Source: a virus
Virus record (IMG/VR): IMGVR_UViG_3300045988_067569
Direction: 5' to 3' (one strand)
DNA: 64,000 bases
Both the position numbers and the translations under genes were made by a program. The notes beneath the pieces were generated by a model. It was given only the letters and a program-made list of their open reading frames with translations. It ran no database searches and was not told where the DNA came from. This document shows, one piece after another, positions 21,012 through 30,064 of this stretch; position 1 is the first letter of the stretch, and every line of letters starts with the position of its first letter.

Positions 21012-21045
21012 AATCTAAAAATTAAGTATCTAATTAATTACTAGT

Positions 21046-21117
21046 AGCGGGAGAGGGACTCGAACCCTCGACCTTCAGGTTATGAGCCTGACTAGCTACC
21101 TCTGCTAACACCCCGCG
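21046..21117 (-). tRNA. tRNA-Met(CAT), elongator type (or Ile2)
   Basis: anticodon stem TCAGG/CCTGA with loop CTCATAA; T-arm GAGGG/TTCGAGT/CCCTC; the acceptor register is slightly ambiguous. Confidence 0.6.
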
Positions 21118-21397: not shown

Positions 21398-22055
21398 ATG
21401 TTTGAGATTTTCTTTTTAATTGGTGACATAACTCATAAATTTCCACTGTTAGGATTCCATAACCTAACATCACCAGATAAGTTTTTTTTGTTTAAATCAT
21501 GTTCTAGTAGCATAAGTCCGCAACCATACTACTCTCTCAGTTCATCGACTATCGTATCAGAAAAGGTCTTTATGATTCCGCAGGGACTGGCTTCAACTTA
21601 AACCCCGAATGGATTTTTACCTTGCCAGGTCAGGATATTATTACGTTTCTAGCACTCTGAATTGATTTAGCCTGTTTAATCTTATAATCACGAACTACTT
21701 CTTTCATATAAGAGTTAAATTCCTTCATGTCTTTCCATGAAATCTCATTAGCTGGTTTCGGAGTTTGAAACATTTTGTACTTTTCTAATAGGTCTTTCAT
21801 TTCTCTCTTTAGTTTTCAAAGCGTTTTCACACGCTTGTTTCTTCATTACATATGGACAATCGCAATTTCCATTGTAATACCAACAACAATAATCACACTG
21901 ATGCATAATCTAGTATTTAAAAGTTAAAGTGGGTGCTAGCCGTTTCTATCCCACTATTGCGTACTACAGTGCTAGCTACCGTCCAAGTTACTCTCTTCCT
22001 CACATCGACTTGGAATTTGCTGGATTAATATTACTAGGAGGATTCAGCAAAAAGG

Positions 22056-22140
22056 CGTATGGTGCAGGATTCGAACCTGCGATGGGATTTCTCACGGTGG
22101 GTTAACAGCCCACTGCCGTCGGCCACTTGGCTAACCATAC
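22056..22140 (-). tRNA. type II (long variable arm) tRNA with anticodon GTT (Asn anticodon on a Ser/Tyr-type body)
   Basis: acceptor GTATGGT/ACCATAC, discriminator G, 3-bp D-stem, perfect anticodon stem GTGGG/CCCAC with loop CTGTTAA, 16-nt variable arm, T-loop TTCGAAT. Confidence 0.55.
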
Positions 22141-23032: not shown

Positions 23033-23116
23033 GTTCTATTCTTATTTAAAATTAAACATATTAGTAAGATTAGCGTTATCCAACTCACACCACGTGGAGG
23101 TTCTTACTTGTGAGTC

Positions 23117-23195
23117 TTGCGGAGGTAGGATTCGAACCGTTTATGACGATTTCTAGGTTATGAGCCTAGCGAGATGACCACTTCTCTACTCCACG
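23117..23195 (-). tRNA. tRNA-Met-like (CAT), initiator-like C1/A72 end but disrupted T-stem; possibly degenerate
   Basis: D-arm GAGA/AGTGGTCA/TCTC, anticodon stem CTAGG/CCTAG with loop CTCATAA, T-loop TTCGAAT, but T-stem halves AACGG/CCTAC do not pair and there is an extra CGTCATAAA segment. Confidence 0.35.
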
Positions 23196-23341
23196 ATATT
23201 GGCAGCTACTTTACATCCGCTACCCAGGGATGCCTCTATCACCAGTGAGGCACGGACTATTCTAACCGTATAGCACGACTGGTTGGTAACGTCTCCAGAC
23301 ACGGCATTTAGACTGAAAATGTCGAAACAGTGATTTAAAGA

Positions 23342-23977
23342 TTAAATAGGCTCTGGAAGATATTTCCAAATATAGCCATACTATGATTTGGTTTTATTCT
23401 TACAGCATCCTATAATATGACTCTATGCAGATTTATTGTCAGTAATTCCGTTATTAATTAACCATTCCTAAGCTTCTCTGGAACCAAAGAATACCTGTAT
23501 AAAATTACCTGCTAAGTCATACTAAGCAATTAACTTTGCGTTACTTTTTCTAATTTTTATATTATTTGCCTTCAAAACTTTGTAAATAGTGTCTTTACAG
23601 CACCCTATTTTTTCTTGTATCTAAGAACTAGTATATCCCAATCTAGCTAATTCTACAATTTCACTATGATTGTATAGAATAGTGCCATCTCCTCCTTTAG
23701 AGGCATTGTACCCATTAGAACCATAAGTTCCTAGCTCTTTTATCCAATAGATTTCTCTTTCAGATAATTCAGAGTTACTATCTACATATTCCAATTCCTC
23801 TATCATAAAGTTCTCAACACCATACTTATTCATGGCATCATATAAAGGTCTTTTGTTGCATCTTTCTTTCTAAAAGTCATAACAATGTTCCTTCCAGCGC
23901 TCTTCTATAGAAGTAGTAGTTTTTCCTACGTATCGCTTGCTATTAATTAAATTTGTAATGCAATAAATATATGCCAT
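23342..23977 (-). CDS. GIY-YIG homing endonuclease paralog requiring read-through of about six in-frame TAG codons
   Basis: MAYIYCITNLINSKRYVGKTT...RWKEHCYDF-TAG-KERCNKRPLYDAMNKYGVENF...; C-terminal half is homologous to the 22457-23032 paralog; ends TAA at 23342. Confidence 0.6.
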
Positions 23978-23997
23978 ATTTTTAAATTTAAAATTAG

Positions 23998-24082
23998 AAT
24001 CCGTGGAGGGATTCGAACCCTCATTAAAGATTTCTCTTTTCAGTTTTGCAGACTGATGGCTAAACCATTCACCCACACGGAT
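23998..24082 (-). tRNA. type II (long variable arm) tRNA with anticodon GCA (Cys anticodon)
   Basis: acceptor ATCCGTG/CACGGAT, anticodon stem TCAGT/ACTGA with loop CTGCAAA, 17-nt variable arm with internal stem AAAGA/TCTTT, T-arm GAGGG/TTCGAAT/CCCTC. Confidence 0.5.
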
Positions 24083-28114: not shown

Positions 28115-28525
28115 TTATACTACTTTAAGATGGCAATAAATACTAAATTCTGGAATTGGAATCCAAGTTGCAATACCATTGCTATCTACTGGTTTACCCT
28201 TGTTGATTGTACAAATAGTGATATGAGGTTTAGCATTTGCACAAGGCAGATATTGGTCTCCCAATTCTACTCCAAAAGCTATTGCTTTCTCAGAAATCCC
28301 TATTTTGTTTACAATTAATCGAAAATTACCATCTATACGATATTGTAGGTCATTAGCCATCTTTTCTTCATGTTGATTTTTATGGAGAAGAGTGCAATGA
28401 TCTAAATAAATAGTACTTCCTCTTTGGAACACCAGATTGCAAATAATGGGATTTCCAATGATAACTTGCATAAGTTTGTTTCTAGTTGGTTCATCTAAGA
28501 ACAATCCAAAATACTGATAATTCAT
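28115..28525 (-). CDS. hypothetical protein
   Basis: ORF track. Confidence 0.4.
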   Translation of the reverse strand: MNYQYFGLFLDEPTRNKLMQVIIGNPIICNLVFQRGSTIYLDHCTLLHKNQHEEKMANDLQYRIDGNFRLIVNKIGISEKAIAFGVELGDQYLPCANAKPHITICTINKGKPVDSNGIATWIPIPEFSIYCHLKVV

Positions 28526-28663
28526 AAGTTTTATTTTTTAATTATTTGAAATCAGACCTCATACCCGTTCCATGGAGCGCAATATAAGCCGACTATACTC
28601 GTGGCAACCTATATTACTTGATATGTCTTTTCGGTTGTACTACTTTCTCCGTATCTGATTATG

Positions 28664-28732
28664 TGAACCTATTGGGACTTGAACCCAAATCTAGCCAACG
28701 CGTCTAGACCTTTATTCCAATTAGGTAGGCTC
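28664..28732 (-). tRNA. tRNA-like gene with aberrant anticodon arm (5-bp stem TCTAG/CTAGA closing a 9-nt loop ACGCGTTGG); isotype undetermined
   Basis: acceptor GAGCCTA/TAGGTTC, D-region with GG, T-arm TTGGG/TTCAAGT/CCCAA; no 7-nt anticodon loop can be drawn. Confidence 0.35.
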
Positions 28733-28737
28733 AAGTG

Positions 28738-28781
28738 TGGACCTAGAGGGCTTTGAACCCCCGACCTTCTGATTATGAGTC
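28738..28781 (-). tRNA. 3' half of an interrupted tRNA-Met-like gene (anticodon loop CTCATAA, TCAGA, variable AGGTC, T-arm, acceptor TAGGTCC-A)
   Basis: no adjacent 5' stem strand; its acceptor strand is the exact complement of GGACCTA at 29511-29517; the HNH ORF stop codon overlaps the anticodon loop (GAC TCA TAA). Confidence 0.55.
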
Positions 28782-29429
28782 TTTCTTTCTTATTCCTTGA
28801 ATAACTCTGCGAGTTAATCCAAAATGCTGAGCAACTTTCTCCCAATTCTTAAGTATTTCGTACTGCTCATTTACTTCTTCTAGAGAAGGATAATGTTTAT
28901 CAGCATCTCTGCATTCCTTAGAACAGTATATCTTACCCTTAGATTTAGGAAATCTTTTGCCGCATACTGGGCATACAGACCCAGTCATATTTTCAAAAGA
29001 CGTCTTATCTTTAGCTTCAGTATTAACTAAATCTTCAACTTCGTCCATTCCCAAGTGAGGGTTATGTACTTCTCTATGACAATTAGCGCATAGAAGTTGA
29101 CATTTATCTGCTTCCTCTTTAAGCCTTTCTAGACTTGTATTAGATAAATGTCTCATATCTAACTGAAACTCTTTCTCATCTGGATTAATATGGTGAAATT
29201 CTAGAACAGCTATGTTTCTATCATAGCCGCATAGTTCACATTTACCACCACGAGATTTTACTAGCTCTAATTTGCGCTTTAAACCTCTTAACTTCTGTGT
29301 ATTATAATCATTGTAATTCATATACAAATATATATGAAAATAATCATAATACCAAATGTTTTGGTGCAAAATTAAAAATTCAATCCAGAAGTTGTAGGGA
29401 CGGTGGGGTTTGAACCCACGTGCGACCAA
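28773..29429 (-). CDS. HNH homing endonuclease (zinc-binding), located between the two halves of the split tRNA
   Basis: CELCGY...LEFHHINP...LLCANCHREVH HNH motif; C-terminal CPVCG...CSKEC zinc ribbon. Confidence 0.75.
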   Translation of the reverse strand: MVARGFKPHRPYNFWIEFLILHQNIWYYDYFHIYLYMNYNDYNTQKLRGLKRKLELVKSRGGKCELCGYDRNIAVLEFHHINPDEKEFQLDMRHLSNTSLERLKEEADKCQLLCANCHREVHNPHLGMDEVEDLVNTEAKDKTSFENMTGSVCPVCGKRFPKSKGKIYCSKECRDADKHYPSLEEVNEQYEILKNWEKVAQHFGLTRRVIQGIRKKDS

Positions 29430-29471
29430 CTACCCTTTCTACAAGGTATAAGCTTGAGGGGATACGTCCCT
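29395..29471 (-). ncRNA. tRNA-like element without a canonical D-arm (acceptor AGGGACG/CGTCCCT, hairpin CCTT-GTAGAA-AGGG, T-arm GTGGG/TTCAAAC/CCCAC)
   Basis: hand fold; homologous to the 18876-18960 element. Confidence 0.4.
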
Positions 29472-29473
29472 AT

Positions 29474-29517
29474 CTGACTCATAATTAGCTGCTCTGACCT
29501 GGCTGAGCTATAGGTCC
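29474..29517 (-). tRNA. 5' half of the interrupted tRNA (acceptor GGACCTA, D-arm GCTC/AGCCAGGTCA/GAGC, then AGCTAATTATGAGTCAG)
   Basis: acceptor is the exact complement of the 3' half at 28739-28745; its 3' end carries ATTATGAGTC, the complement of GACTCATAAT in the 3' half. Confidence 0.5.
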
Positions 29518-29595
29518 GATTTAGTCTCACTATCGTAGGACTATAAGCTCCCAACGTCCGACTGGCTACGGAAGGTTATTTACCGGTCTAATAAC

Positions 29596-29868
29596 CTATT
29601 CTACTGTTAGTTCCTGTTCGCAGACATATTCAACTAGCAATTCATCATTACCAAATACCATAATCTGCAATACCACAATTTCCGGCCCATCCTTACTTAG
29701 TCTTGGTCTACTAGAGAATGCATATTCTGACATAGGAGACCTAGAATGAAATCTTACGAATTTACTTCTAGGATGAGACCTCTGGATTATTCCGCTACTG
29801 GGAGTATTTAGAGATACTTTACTAGTTATCTCCCCAATATTGAAAGAAGTTACGTTAAGCATAAGCAC
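29596..29868 (-). CDS. hypothetical protein
   Basis: ORF track. Confidence 0.3.
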   Translation of the reverse strand: MLMLNVTSFNIGEITSKVSLNTPSSGIIQRSHPRSKFVRFHSRSPMSEYAFSSRPRLSKDGPEIVVLQIMVFGNDELLVEYVCEQELTVE

Positions 29869-30064
29869 TTATTGATTGACATTTAAATATTATAGTTTTA
29901 CCAATAATATCATCAGGCTTTATATTAAACTTAGAAAACTCCTCAACCAGCTCATTCATATCTTCTACAGAATATGTCTCTCCAATAACTCTCATATTAT
30001 CTAGAGAAGTTTGGAAGTTCTTCAGTAGCTCTGTAAGTAAACAGCTATTAATTATTACTTTCAT
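29855..30064 (-). CDS. hypothetical protein
   Basis: ORF track. Confidence 0.3.
   Translation of the reverse strand: MKVIINSCLLTELLKNFQTSLDNMRVIGETYSVEDMNELVEEFSKFNIKPDDIIGKTIIFKCQSISAYA

What the first reader, a model, noticed from the sequence alone, without database searches (positions are those of the whole stretch)
28664..29517. tRNA(CAU) gene apparently split by an HNH endonuclease ORF, with a nested tRNA-like element
At 29474-29517 (minus) there is a canonical tRNA 5' half: acceptor GGACCTA, D-arm GCTC/AGCCAGGTCA/GAGC. At 28738-28781 there is a tRNA 3' half: anticodon loop CTCATAA, TCAGA, T-arm, acceptor TAGGTCC-A. The two acceptor strands are exact complements. Between them lie a 218-aa HNH endonuclease gene, whose TAA stop is embedded in the CAU anticodon loop, and a 77-nt tRNA-like element (29395-29471) that lacks a D-arm. 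A 10-bp inverted repeat ATTATGAGTC/GACTCATAAT (28772-28781 and 29476-29485) brackets the insertion. This looks like an intron-interrupted, possibly group I, tRNA-Met/fMet gene with a homing endonuclease. It could also be a decayed remnant.
Basis: partly seen in the sequence, partly recalled or inferred. Interest (0 to 1): 0.8.

Follow-up and report, generated by a model that had tools for sequence, protein, structure and literature searches.

The report
Homing-endonuclease cassette splitting a phage tRNA gene
A tRNA gene of a very common human-gut phage is cut cleanly in two by a 705-bp mobile insert that carries an HNH nuclease gene and an odd, D-arm-less isoleucine-type tRNA; it looks like a selfish cassette that brings a substitute tRNA, not a self-splicing intron.

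Summary
On the minus strand, a tRNA(CAU) gene is interrupted exactly between nt 29 and 30. The 5' part is 29517-29487, the 705-bp insert is 29486-28782, and the 3' part is 28781-28738. A relative with about 99% identical flanks carries the same gene uninterrupted.

The insert has four parts:
- a 15-nt linker, 12 nt of which are the reverse complement of tRNA nt 28-39;
- a 77-nt tRNA-like RNA;
- an AT-rich spacer;
- a 182-aa HNH gene whose stop codon is U36-A37-A38 of the split tRNA.

No group I or group II intron signature was found, and the insert ends in A, not G.

The tRNA-like RNA belongs to a phage-wide family with strong covariation. Its anticodon is always UAU or GAU (Ile).

HNH homologues down to about 55% identity recur as "cargo tRNA (UAU or CAU) + HNH + 3' fragment of a tRNA(CAU)". 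Many of these have missing nucleotides, mismatched halves or no 5' half.

Best reading: a homing-endonuclease cassette that disrupts a tRNA-Ile2-like gene and carries a replacement AUA decoder. Splicing is not excluded for this precise variant, but nothing supports it.

The parts
29487..29517 (-). 5' fragment of tRNA(CAU): acceptor 5' strand, D arm, nt 26-29 (GGACCTATAGCTCAGCCAGGTCAGAGCAGCT)
   Evidence: Read directly. Collinear with the intact gene in L001:2383-2413. Its acceptor strand pairs with 28739-28745 (I11).
29472..29486 (-). 15-nt linker AATTATGAGTCAGAT. Positions 29485-29474 (ATTATGAGTCAG) are the exact reverse complement of tRNA nt 28-39.
   Evidence: I4. Predicted to pair with the start of the 3' fragment in the fold of the whole precursor. 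Variants keep the pairing: L020 has A>G and C>U, giving G.U pairs; L023 has AA>GG. L139 and L142 have TTATGAA opposite a TTCATAA loop. The repeat is degenerate in L138 and in the P0008 type.
29395..29471 (-). Nested D-arm-less tRNA-Ile-like RNA: acceptor AGGGACG/CGTCCCT, 3-bp helix CCC/GGG enclosing the hairpin CAAG-CTTATAC-CTTG (anticodon UAU at 29450-29448), D-loop-like AGTTGGT segment, T arm GTGGG-TTCAAAC-CCCAC, discriminator A.
   Evidence: Not called by ARAGORN. Only a sub-threshold tmRNA-like Rfam hit. Family alignment A2: 99.3% of cells paired, 15 of 21 pairs with double changes, covariation score 0.724 against 0.178 in shuffles. The model R1 scores members above 80 bits and ordinary tRNAs at 33 bits or less.
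29322..29394 (-). AT-rich spacer with two TAnnTTTG boxes (TAATTTTG 29374-29367; TATATTTG 29332-29325), a candidate Bacteroidota-type promoter for the HNH gene.
   Evidence: Sequence. The match to the TAnnTTTG -7 consensus is from my own knowledge, not a tool test. Similar boxes lie upstream of the HNH ATG in L047, L048, L053 and L056.
28773..29321 (-). HNH endonuclease gene, 182 aa. Its last two codons and stop (TCA TAA, with GAC before) are nt 30-38 of the split tRNA.
   Evidence: The exact protein is on record in 1392 assembly blocks. PHROG phrog_2255 'HNH endonuclease', E 7e-26. Pfam HNH is marginal at 20.9 bits. Invariant C28, C31, C78, C81, H43, H44, N61, N80, H82 and H86 across 14 homologues.
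28738..28781 (-). 3' fragment of tRNA(CAU): nt 30-76 (GACTCATAATCAGAAGGTCGGGGGTTCAAAGCCCTCTAGGTCC) plus discriminator A.
   Evidence: Collinear with L001:2414-2458.

Best explanation
The 705-bp insert is a free-standing homing-endonuclease cassette, not a self-splicing intron. It consists of a cargo RNA gene (a D-arm-less tRNA-Ile(UAU)-like RNA), its own promoter, and an HNH endonuclease gene whose reading frame ends in the anticodon loop of the target tRNA.

Proposed steps, with their status:
1. In mixed infections the HNH enzyme cuts or nicks the uninterrupted tRNA(CAU) gene of cassette-free relatives near the anticodon arm (inferred).
2. Repair from the cassette-bearing genome copies in the cassette plus a few flanking exon nucleotides. 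The resulting presence/absence polymorphism and chimeric exons are shown.
3. The target gene is left split and, most likely, non-functional. This is inferred for the window copy. It is shown for sister copies that lack nucleotides or have mismatched halves.
4. The split gene looks like a tRNA-Ile2 (CAU, lysidine-dependent AUA decoder). The cargo carries a UAU anticodon, so the cassette probably supplies a cleavage-immune, TilS-independent substitute for the function it destroys (inferred).

The 12-nt inverted copy of the anticodon arm at the left junction is either a scar of the insertion, such as a loop inversion at the palindromic anticodon stem, or an RNA pairing element. This remains unresolved.
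For: 1. Precise presence/absence. An intact allele is in L001. L001 and L050 have flanks 98.5-99.3% identical and differ by the insert.

2. Recent spread.
- The identical 182-aa HNH is in 1392 assembly blocks, and all 10 loci read show the same architecture, including diverged relatives (L005, L007, L013) with different neighbouring genes.
- The same cassette sits in different tRNA(CAU) backgrounds (GGACCTA, GGGCCTG, GGGCCTA, GGGCCTC, GGACCCA), with chimeric exons.
- In L052, L146 and L153 the 5' anticodon-stem strand ACTGA cannot pair with the 3' strand TGTCA. L159 has a T-T mismatch.

3. Intron signatures absent.
- No group I or II model at E<=10.
- The insert runs from A to A.
- No RNA ligase, kinase or splicing endonuclease was found among the 48 larger window ORFs scanned.

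4. Sister elements cannot yield a tRNA.
- The P0008 type (HNH 80% identical) sits in the same tRNA and the same phage lineages but lacks nt 25-34.
- L053 lacks nt 28-32.
- L003, L042 and L134 keep the 5' half and cargo but have lost the 3' half.
- L013 has a decayed acceptor end.
- L043, L054, L135 and L141 have cargo plus HNH without a 5' half.

5. The HNH family lives in tRNA arrays. In about 24 of 80 loci the ORF stop lies inside the next tRNA gene.

6. The cargo is always an AUA or AUG-type tRNA.
- D-arm-less Ile-like (UAU) in the window type and in L043, L054, L077, L120, L135, L141 and L142.
- Canonical tRNA-Ile(UAU) in L047.
- tRNA(CAU) in L048, L053 and L056.
- In L138 the Ile-like element is fused to a canonical tRNA-Ile(UAU) at their identical anticodon loops.

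7. Identity of the split gene.
- It has C4-G69 and C5-G68, the E. coli TilS determinants.
- The window has no other candidate AUA decoder among its 26 tRNAs.
- ATA makes up 24% of Ile codons.

8. The cargo RNA is a real structured family. It is essentially phage-restricted, with 2 hits in 185,579 species genomes.
Against: - The window-type split loses and gains no nucleotide. L047 and L139 are also precise, at position 31/32. That would be a lucky outcome for an illegitimate insertion.
- The left junction carries a 12-nt sequence complementary to the exon-exon junction region (2 nt of exon 1, 10 nt of exon 2). This resembles an internal guide sequence.
- The few variants seen keep the pairing through G.U or improve it (L020, L023). 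Diverged cassettes have TTATGAA opposite a TTCATAA loop where the window has TTATGAG opposite CTCATAA (L139, L142).
- The predicted fold of the whole precursor closes into a tRNA-like frame.
- A 2H phosphoesterase of the tRNA-ligase CPD type lies next door, although it is also next to the intact allele in L001.
- No cleavage assay, expression data or charging data exist for any component.
- The tRNA-Ile2 assignment rests on E. coli determinants that may not hold in the (probably Bacteroidota) host.
Confidence: 0.65

Rival explanations
1. It is a genuine tRNA intron of a new, non-group-I kind. The guide-like 12-nt segment aligns the two exon ends, cellular or phage enzymes cut at 29|+1 and -1|30, and an RNA ligase joins the exons into a working tRNA(CAU). 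The imprecise sister elements would then be decayed descendants.
For: The split is precise. The 12-nt segment is complementary to the junction. Substitutions preserve pairing in L020 and L023, and loop and repeat covary in L139 and L142. The whole precursor folds into a closed tRNA-like frame. A 2H/CPD phosphoesterase gene is adjacent, and an RNA ligase gene lies next to the homologous module in L048. A perfect repeat co-occurs with perfect exons, whereas degenerate repeats co-occur with damaged exons.
Against: - No ribozyme or intron model matches.
- The boundaries fit neither group I (no terminal G, no U.G) nor group II.
- There is no bulge-helix-bulge: the two cut sites are 11 bp apart on one continuous helix.
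- No ligase, kinase or splicing endonuclease was found in the window ORFs scanned.
- 99%-identical copies sit in exons that cannot form an anticodon stem (L052, L146, L153).
- Other copies have lost the 3' half (L003, L042, L134).
- The same tRNA in the same phage lineages tolerates an insert that deletes 10 nt.
- All pairing-preserving changes are transitions, and they also fit a local pseudo-anticodon hairpin.
Confidence: 0.12
2. The halves are not joined but are used as RNA. By pairing with each other (acceptor stem plus the 12-bp helix), they enclose the cargo and HNH transcript in a tRNA-shaped frame. This frame directs RNase P/Z processing and protects the HNH mRNA 3' end, like a natural 'tRNA scaffold'.
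For: The minimum-free-energy fold of the 780-nt precursor forms exactly this frame. A tRNA 3' fragment with an intact T arm follows the HNH stop in almost every relative, down to about 50% identity, even where no 5' half exists (L048, L053, L056, L077, L120, L135). The ORF-anticodon-loop overlap is conserved.
Against: Many relatives lack the 5' half, so no frame can form there. The recurrent fresh 3' fragment is equally explained by repeated homing into new intact targets. There are no expression data. The idea of stabilisation by a tRNA scaffold comes from engineered systems (my own knowledge).
Confidence: 0.1
3. It is the remnant of a former group I intron in the anticodon loop of a tRNA. 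The ribozyme core has been lost and replaced by the tRNA-like gene.
For: Group I introns with homing endonuclease ORFs in bacterial tRNA anticodon loops are known (my own knowledge). All HNH relatives share the fusion of the ORF end to the anticodon loop. The ancestral insertion point appears to be 31/32, in the loop region.
Against: No trace of a group I core was found in any of the roughly 10 junction types examined. More distant members of the HNH family are free-standing between tRNA genes.
Confidence: 0.05

Closest known systems
Free-standing homing endonucleases in phage tRNA gene clusters (T4 SegB, GIY-YIG, PMC2330249; T5 HNH enzymes of the tRNA region, from memory)
   Same: An endonuclease gene sits inside a phage tRNA array. 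It shows presence/absence polymorphism between relatives and co-conversion of flanking tRNA-region markers. It is not embedded in a self-splicing intron.
   Different: Here the gene sits inside a tRNA gene and splits it. Its ORF uses the target's anticodon loop as its last codons and stop. It also carries its own tRNA-like cargo.
Group I introns with homing endonuclease ORFs in bacterial tRNA anticodon loops (cyanobacterial tRNA-Leu(UAA) and tRNA-fMet, Azoarcus tRNA-Ile; from memory)
   Same: A tRNA gene is interrupted in the anticodon arm, a nuclease ORF lies inside, and a short intron segment is complementary to exon sequence.
   Different: There is no ribozyme core, no terminal G and no U.G at the 5' site. 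The non-coding part is an independent tRNA-like gene.
Genes split by intron-less endonuclease insertion (phage Aeh1 nrdA split by mobE, from memory) and trans-homing of T4 mobE/I-TevIII (PMC2790892, abstract seen)
   Same: A free-standing HNH gene is inserted within a host gene, leaves two pieces, and is mobilised together with flanking DNA.
   Different: The target here is an RNA gene whose pieces cannot reassemble as protein subunits do. The lost function is apparently supplied by the cargo instead.
Split tRNA genes of Nanoarchaeum equitans and archaeal non-canonical tRNA introns (PMC4090602, abstract seen)
   Same: The halves share complementary acceptor strands, and an extra helix brings them together.
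   Different: The archaeal halves are joined through a bulge-helix-bulge motif cut by a splicing endonuclease. Neither the motif nor the enzyme is present here, and the host is bacterial.
D-arm-lacking mitochondrial tRNAs (PMC4394434, abstract seen) and bacterial tRNA-Ile(UAU) of Mycoplasma mobile (PMC3575796)
   Same: The cargo RNA keeps the acceptor stem, T arm and a 7-nt anticodon loop but has no D hairpin. UAU decodes AUA without TilS.
   Different: This is a phage family with its own topology: a 3-bp helix encloses the anticodon hairpin, and a D-loop-like AGTTGGT segment lies after it. I found no description of it in the literature searches.

Membership tests
Group I intron | Conserved catalytic core (P3-P9) detectable by a covariance model | tested here: not met
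   Rfam 15 cmscan of 28300-29900, both strands, E<=10: no group I hit.
Group I intron | 5' exon ends in U paired to G in P1, and the intron ends in G | tested here: not met
   The exon ends in T (29487), but the complementary position is A (29475). The last insert base is A (28782). The boundaries are unambiguous by comparison with L001.
Group I intron | Self-splicing of the transcript | not testable with these tools
   Needs an in vitro transcription and splicing assay.
Group II intron | Domain V/VI structure, GUGYG...AY ends, reverse-transcriptase ORF | tested here: not met
   No Rfam hit. The ends are AAUUA...GAAA. The ORF is an HNH nuclease without a reverse-transcriptase domain.
Archaeal/eukaryal protein-spliced tRNA intron | Bulge-helix-bulge motif (two 3-nt bulges 4 bp apart) at the splice sites | tested here: not met
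   In the predicted fold and by inspection, the two junctions lie 11 bp apart on one continuous helix with no 3-nt bulges.
Archaeal/eukaryal protein-spliced tRNA intron | Splicing endonuclease and RNA ligase available | tested here: inconclusive
   None found among 48 window ORFs scanned with Pfam; only a 2H/CPD phosphoesterase. The rest of the phage genome and the host were not examined.
Free-standing HNH homing endonuclease cassette | HNH catalytic residues and zinc-binding cysteines conserved | tested here: met
   phrog_2255, E 7e-26. Invariant H43, H44, N61, N80, H82, H86 and C28, C31, C78, C81 in 14 homologues. Pfam HNH falls just below its cut-off.
Free-standing HNH homing endonuclease cassette | Presence/absence at one site between near-identical genomes | tested here: met
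   L001 against L050: flanks 98.5-99.3% identical, ~708-bp insert.
Free-standing HNH homing endonuclease cassette | Spread into diverged targets with co-conversion of flanks | tested here: met
   A 99-100% identical cassette sits in five tRNA(CAU) backgrounds, with chimeric exons in L004, L052, L153 and L159.
Free-standing HNH homing endonuclease cassette | Enzyme cleaves the cassette-free allele | not testable with these tools
   Needs a cleavage assay on the L001-type sequence.
Canonical tRNA (nested element) | Cloverleaf with D arm, detected by tRNA finders | tested here: not met
   Not called by ARAGORN. The best Rfam clan hit is 23.8 bits, to tmRNA, below threshold. Covariation supports a different topology.
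Canonical tRNA (nested element) | 7-bp acceptor stem, T arm with TTCAA loop, 7-nt anticodon loop with T33 and A37, discriminator base | tested here: met
   Alignment A2: 21 pairs, 99.3% of cells paired, 15 pairs with double changes. The loop is always CT(T/G)ATA(A/C), and A is invariant after the acceptor stem.
Canonical tRNA (nested element) | Processed, CCA-tailed, aminoacylated, used in translation | not testable with these tools
   CCA is not encoded (ACA follows the stem). Needs tRNA-seq or charging assays.
tmRNA | tRNA-like domain with G3.U70 plus a tag reading frame | tested here: not met
   23.8 bits against a gathering score of 47. Pair 3-70 is G-C. The element is only 77 nt with no tag ORF. 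ARAGORN finds no tmRNA.
tRNA-Ile2 (CAU, TilS substrate), for the split gene | CAU anticodon, C4-G69 and C5-G68, non-initiator features | tested here: met
   Sequence. The determinants are those stated for E. coli in PMC2500205. All split variants (GGACCTA, GGGCCTN, GCTCCTA, GGTCCCG) have C4 and C5. G1-C72 is present, and there is no GGG/CCC in the anticodon stem.
tRNA-Ile2 (CAU, TilS substrate), for the split gene | C34 converted to lysidine and charged with Ile | not testable with these tools
   Elongator tRNA-Met cannot be excluded from sequence alone.

The most novel reading that the evidence does not exclude
The window-type element is a working tRNA intron of a new class in a bacterial virus. 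A 12-nt guide next to the 5' splice site holds the exon ends together, a nested tRNA-like RNA recruits RNase P/Z to open the intron, and protein enzymes trim and ligate the halves. One transcript would then yield two tRNAs and a nuclease mRNA.
Probability: 0.1. Interest if true: 0.9.

Novelty: new variant of a known kind. Interest (0 to 1): 0.62.

Why it matters
**A new route for homing endonucleases.** If the main reading holds, a homing endonuclease can invade an essential-type RNA gene without an intron by carrying a functional, cleavage-immune substitute for its target. This is a gene-swap strategy for selfish DNA, in one of the most abundant large phages of the human gut.

**An undescribed tRNA-like family.** The cargo RNA has a rearranged core and no D hairpin, its anticodon is restricted to isoleucine, and its covariation is strong. 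The family occurs from gut phages to Streptomyces phages. It bears on how far the tRNA fold can be altered and still serve translation, and on how phages decode AUA independently of host TilS.

**Annotation.** Standard tRNA finders miss both the split gene and the cargo.

**The minority reading.** If the element is spliced after all, it would be a new kind of bacterial tRNA intron.

Tried and rejected
- **Known RNA families.** An Rfam scan at E<=10 for group I/II introns and small ribozymes over 28300-29900 found nothing relevant.
- **RNA repair or splicing enzymes.** I looked among 48 window ORFs and found only a 2H/CPD phosphoesterase. That gene also sits beside the intact allele, so it does not argue for splicing.
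- **Uninterrupted version of the L052-type tRNA.** I wanted it to prove co-conversion of the 5' stem strand. The 3' exon pattern found only the split copy, and the guessed intact arm TGACACTCATAATGTCAAGG found nothing.
- **Literature.** Searches for D-arm-less phage tRNAs or HNH-split tRNA genes returned nothing specific.
- **tmRNA-like reading of the nested element.** Rejected: sub-threshold score, no G3.U70, no tag.
- **Inverted repeat as a chance match.** Ten-nucleotide repeats are common in this AT-rich stretch. Chance is unlikely all the same, because the repeat lies at the junction and recurs with a matching base change in L139 and L142.
- **L009.** The short deletions in both T arms of L009 were not pursued; they may be an assembly artefact.
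Full report
**What is in the sequence**

Everything below is read on the minus strand.

| Window coordinates | Content |
|---|---|
| 29517-29487 | First 31 bases of a tRNA: acceptor GGACCTA, D arm GCTC/AGCCAGGTCA/GAGC, A26, G27-C28-T29 |
| 29486-28782 | 705-bp insert |
| 28781-28738 | Rest of the tRNA: G30-A31, loop CTCATAA, TCAGA, AGGTC, T arm GGGGG/TTCAAAG/CCCTC, acceptor TAGGTCC, discriminator A |

- ARAGORN other tRNAs in the window but not this one.
- A 5.7-kb phage record from human faeces, MT838061.1, holds the same gene uninterrupted (L001:2383-2458). This fixes the insertion point between nt 29 and 30, with no base lost or gained.
- A viral contig (L050) whose flanks are 98.5-99.3% identical to L001 carries the insert. 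The two states therefore coexist in nearly the same genome.

**Anatomy of the insert**

1. A 15-nt linker, AATTATGAGTCAGAT. Twelve of its bases are the exact reverse complement of tRNA nt 28-39 (repeat finder I4: 12 of 13).
2. A 77-nt tRNA-like element at 29471-29395.
3. A 73-nt AT-rich spacer with two TAnnTTTG boxes. I recognise these as the Bacteroidota -7 promoter consensus from my own knowledge; this was not tested.
4. A 182-aa ORF from ATG 29321 to TAA 28775-28773.

The 218-aa TTG ORF in the mechanical list is not the gene. The 182-aa protein is on record, residue for residue, in 1392 blocks of public assemblies, mostly human-gut contigs of 110-280 kb.

The protein matches PHROG HNH endonuclease families (E 7e-26). 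It keeps the histidines, asparagines and four cysteines that are invariant in 14 homologues. Its last codons and stop (GAC TCA TAA) are nt 30-38 of the tRNA.

**Not a group I or group II intron**

- An Rfam 15 scan of 28300-29900 at E<=10 gives no intron or ribozyme hit. The only related match is a sub-threshold tmRNA-like hit on the nested element.
- The insert begins and ends with A.
- The U at the end of the 5' part would pair with A rather than G.
- The two junctions lie 11 bp apart on one continuous helix, so there is no bulge-helix-bulge.
- Pfam scans of 48 window ORFs found no RNA ligase, polynucleotide kinase, RtcB or splicing endonuclease.
- The neighbouring ORF at 28525-28115 is a 2H phosphoesterase of the tRNA-ligase CPD type (E 2e-7). 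It is also present beside the intact allele in L001.

**The nested element is a real RNA family**

- A degenerate pattern found the element in 30 viral contigs. These include Streptomyces phages, where one record annotates it as tRNA-Leu, and several environmental phages. It often sits inside ordinary tRNA arrays.
- Fourteen distinct sequences align without trouble.
- They support five helices: a 7-bp acceptor stem, a 3-bp helix (NCC/GGN'), a 4-bp hairpin inside that helix, a 2-bp helix and a T arm.
- 99.3% of cells are paired, and 15 of 21 pairs show changes on both sides. The covariation score is 0.724, against 0.178 for shuffles (0 of 500 reach it) and 0.07-0.14 for slid partners.
- The hairpin loop is always CT(T/G)ATA(A/C), so the anticodon is UAU or GAU, both isoleucine. 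T33, A37 and an A discriminator are also present.
- There is no D hairpin. A D-loop-like AGTTGGT segment follows the 3-bp helix instead.
- A covariance model built from the alignment scores members above 80 bits and ordinary tRNAs at 33 bits or less.
- Only two contigs in 185,579 species genomes match the core pattern, so the family is essentially confined to phages.
- I found no description of it in the literature.

**The HNH family and its contexts**

There are 852 homologues at E<=1e-3. Across 80 viral loci, the N-terminal HNH core is overwhelmingly found in tRNA arrays. In about 24 of them the ORF stop lies within the first bases of the next tRNA gene.

For the long-form relatives closest to the window protein I read the junctions of about ten types.

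| Type or locus | HNH identity to window | Cargo | State of the tRNA(CAU) halves |
|---|---|---|---|
| L047 | 70% | Canonical tRNA-Ile(UAU) | Precise split at 31/32 |
| L139 | 72% | Odd tRNA(UAU) | Precise split at 31/32 |
| L138 | 89% | Ile-like element fused, at the identical anticodon loop, to a canonical tRNA-Ile(UAU) | 5' part lacks nt 30-31 |
| P0008 type | 80% | Ile-like | Same tRNA and same phage lineages as the window; nt 25-34 missing |
| L053 | 65% | Full tRNA(CAU) | Halves have matching acceptor strands; nt 28-32 missing |
| L056 | 57% (N-terminal HNH core only) | Full tRNA(CAU) | 5' fragment stops after the D arm; 3' fragment starts in the anticodon loop |
| L048 | 57% | Full tRNA(CAU) | 3' fragment only; no adjacent 5' half |
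| L135 | 64% | Ile-like | 3' fragment only |
| L141 | 70% | Ile-like | No 5' half; only a remnant of the anticodon loop after the stop |
| L043 | 61% | Ile-like | Free-standing; no tRNA halves |
| L054 | 55% | Ile-like about 300 nt upstream | Free-standing; no tRNA halves |

Wherever a 3' fragment follows the gene, the HNH stop codon is U36-A37-A38 of that fragment. The conserved unit is therefore cargo tRNA (UAU or CAU) plus HNH plus a 3' piece of a tRNA(CAU). The 5' piece is optional.

**Signs of recent spread without regard to tRNA function**

- The 99-100% identical window-type cassette sits in at least five tRNA(CAU) backgrounds: acceptors GGACCTA, GGGCCTG, GGGCCTA, GGGCCTC and GGACCCA.
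- In L052, L146 and L153 the 5' stem strand that travels with the cassette (ACTGA) cannot pair with the resident 3' strand (TGTCA). Joining the halves there would not give a tRNA.
- L159 has a T-T mismatch in the anticodon stem, and L004 has a chimeric acceptor stem.
- L003, L042 and L134 keep the 5' half and the cargo but have lost the HNH end and the 3' half.
- L013 has a decayed acceptor end.
- The intact anticodon arm AGAGCANCTGACTCATAATCAG occurs in at least 120 viral contigs from many environments. It is therefore a widely available target.
- None of those 120 contigs is among the contigs that carry the cassette or the Ile-like pattern.

**What the split gene probably was**

- It is not an initiator: it has G1-C72 and no GGG/CCC in the anticodon stem.
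- Every split variant has C4-G69 and C5-G68. In E. coli these are the positive determinants for TilS on tRNA-Ile2, and tRNA-Met has the opposite pairs (PMC2500205).
- The window has an initiator-like tRNA(CAU) at 21044-21117 and an odd 81-nt tRNA(CAU) at 23116-23196. It has no other candidate AUA decoder.
- ATA is 16.5 per 1000 codons, 24% of Ile codons, in 30 window ORFs.
- A UAU anticodon reads AUA without lysidine (PMC3575796, abstract).

This is the basis for the inference that the cargo replaces the function of the gene it disrupts. It remains an inference.

**The unresolved part: the inverted repeat**

The 12-nt inverted repeat is complementary to the last two bases of the 5' part and the first ten of the 3' part, as an internal guide would be. 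The fold of the whole 780-nt precursor pairs it that way and also pairs the two acceptor strands.

Variants keep the pairing:
- L020 has A>G and C>U, giving G.U pairs.
- L023 has AA>GG, adding a G-C and a G.U pair.
- L139 and L142 have TTATGAA opposite a TTCATAA loop, where the window has TTATGAG opposite CTCATAA.

Points that weaken this as evidence for splicing:
- All these changes are transitions.
- They also fit a local pseudo-anticodon hairpin in the 5' part.
- The anticodon stem is itself a palindrome. An inverted loop could be a scar of strand switching at the hairpin during the original insertion.
- The linkers of L138 and the P0008 type look homologous but have lost the complementarity.
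- Thirteen inverted repeats of 9 nt or more occur in this 951-nt stretch, so length alone is not significant.

I therefore keep a genuine, protein-dependent splicing route at about 0.12. I keep an RNA-frame role for the unjoined halves at about 0.10.

**Verdict**

The gene is interrupted by an endonuclease-bearing mobile insert, but it is not a group I intron and not fMet.
- The best-supported explanation is an intron-less HNH homing cassette that splits a tRNA-Ile2-like gene and brings a non-canonical tRNA-Ile(UAU)-like RNA as a likely substitute.
- This is a new variant of a known kind, the free-standing homing endonucleases of phage tRNA clusters such as T4 SegB (PMC2330249).
- The cargo RNA family is the most novel component.

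Noticed in passing
window 43900-64000 (+), tRNA(cta) 43832-43904 (+), tRNA(tta) 40577-40647 (-): The late-gene region appears to be TAG-recoded. Stop-free stretches of 150 codons or more rise from 5 (1111 codons) to 13 (5524 codons, longest 793) when TAG is read as sense. TAA or TGA give no such gain. Two suppressor-type tRNAs lie nearby. HNH relatives in L043 and L139 have in-frame TAG where the window protein has Q.
   Followed up: partly
window 23116-24082 (-): A GIY-YIG-type endonuclease ORF (MAYIYCITNLINSKRYVGK...) has six in-frame stops in the standard code. It is flanked by an 86-nt 'tRNA-Cys' call that overlaps its start and by an odd 81-nt tRNA(CAT). Relatives have an intact 263-aa GIY-YIG gene here (L006:10803-11594). 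This may be a second endonuclease-tRNA entanglement.
   Followed up: partly
window 28664-28732 (-): A 69-nt tRNA-like element lies directly 3' of the split tRNA. It has acceptor GAGCCTA/TAGGTTC, T arm TTGGG-TTCAAGT-CCCAA and a hairpin TCTAG/CTAGA with a 9-nt loop ACGCGTTGG. ARAGORN does not call it. It takes the place of the initiator-like tRNA(CAT) of L001 (2520-2593) and is conserved in L010, L011 and L014.
   Followed up: no
window 29518-29595 (-); L005, L007, L013, L051 upstream of the 5' fragment: A conserved ~78-nt non-coding element abuts the tRNA 5' end. Its first hairpin shows compensatory changes between the window (GGTTATT/AATAACC) and L005 (GGTTGTC/GGCAACC). Other relatives carry a different ~130-nt element closed by AAATACGCAAT/ATTGCGTATTT, and some carry none. 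There is no Rfam hit at E<=10. These may be processing elements or ribozyme-like RNAs.
   Followed up: no
window 22054-22140, 23997-24082, 23116-23196 (-): Three tRNA calls (Asn 87 nt, Cys 86 nt, Met 81 nt) have unexpectedly long variable regions that share an AGAAATC motif (extended to GAGAAATC in Asn and Cys). This is reminiscent of the AGAAAGG segment of the Ile-like element.
   Followed up: no
window 28115-28525 (-); L048:2083-2775: A 136-aa 2H phosphoesterase (Pfam tRNA_lig_CPD, E 2e-7, two HxT motifs) lies next to the split tRNA, and also next to the intact allele in L001. A related phage has a PF09414 RNA ligase gene right after its HNH module. Together these suggest a phage tRNA-repair toolkit.
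   Followed up: partly
window 29299-29352: A 25-nt imperfect inverted repeat (76% complementary, arms 4 nt apart) spans the TATATTTG box and the HNH start codon (I1). It may be a regulatory hairpin for HNH expression.
   Followed up: no
L009:5650-6820: One assembly shows ~7-8-nt deletions inside both T arms: GTGGGTTCAAACCCCAC becomes GTGGCCCCAC, and GGTCGGGGGTTCAAAGCCC becomes GGTCAAAGCCC. This is either an assembly artefact or parallel decay.
   Followed up: no
L048:210-283 and 1540-1580: The 5' acceptor strand that matches the orphan 3' tRNA(CAU) fragment (AGGGCCC) is found fused into a tRNA-Lys(ttt) call whose own acceptor stem pairs poorly. This suggests recombination between tRNA genes through their shared D-arm sequence.
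   Followed up: no
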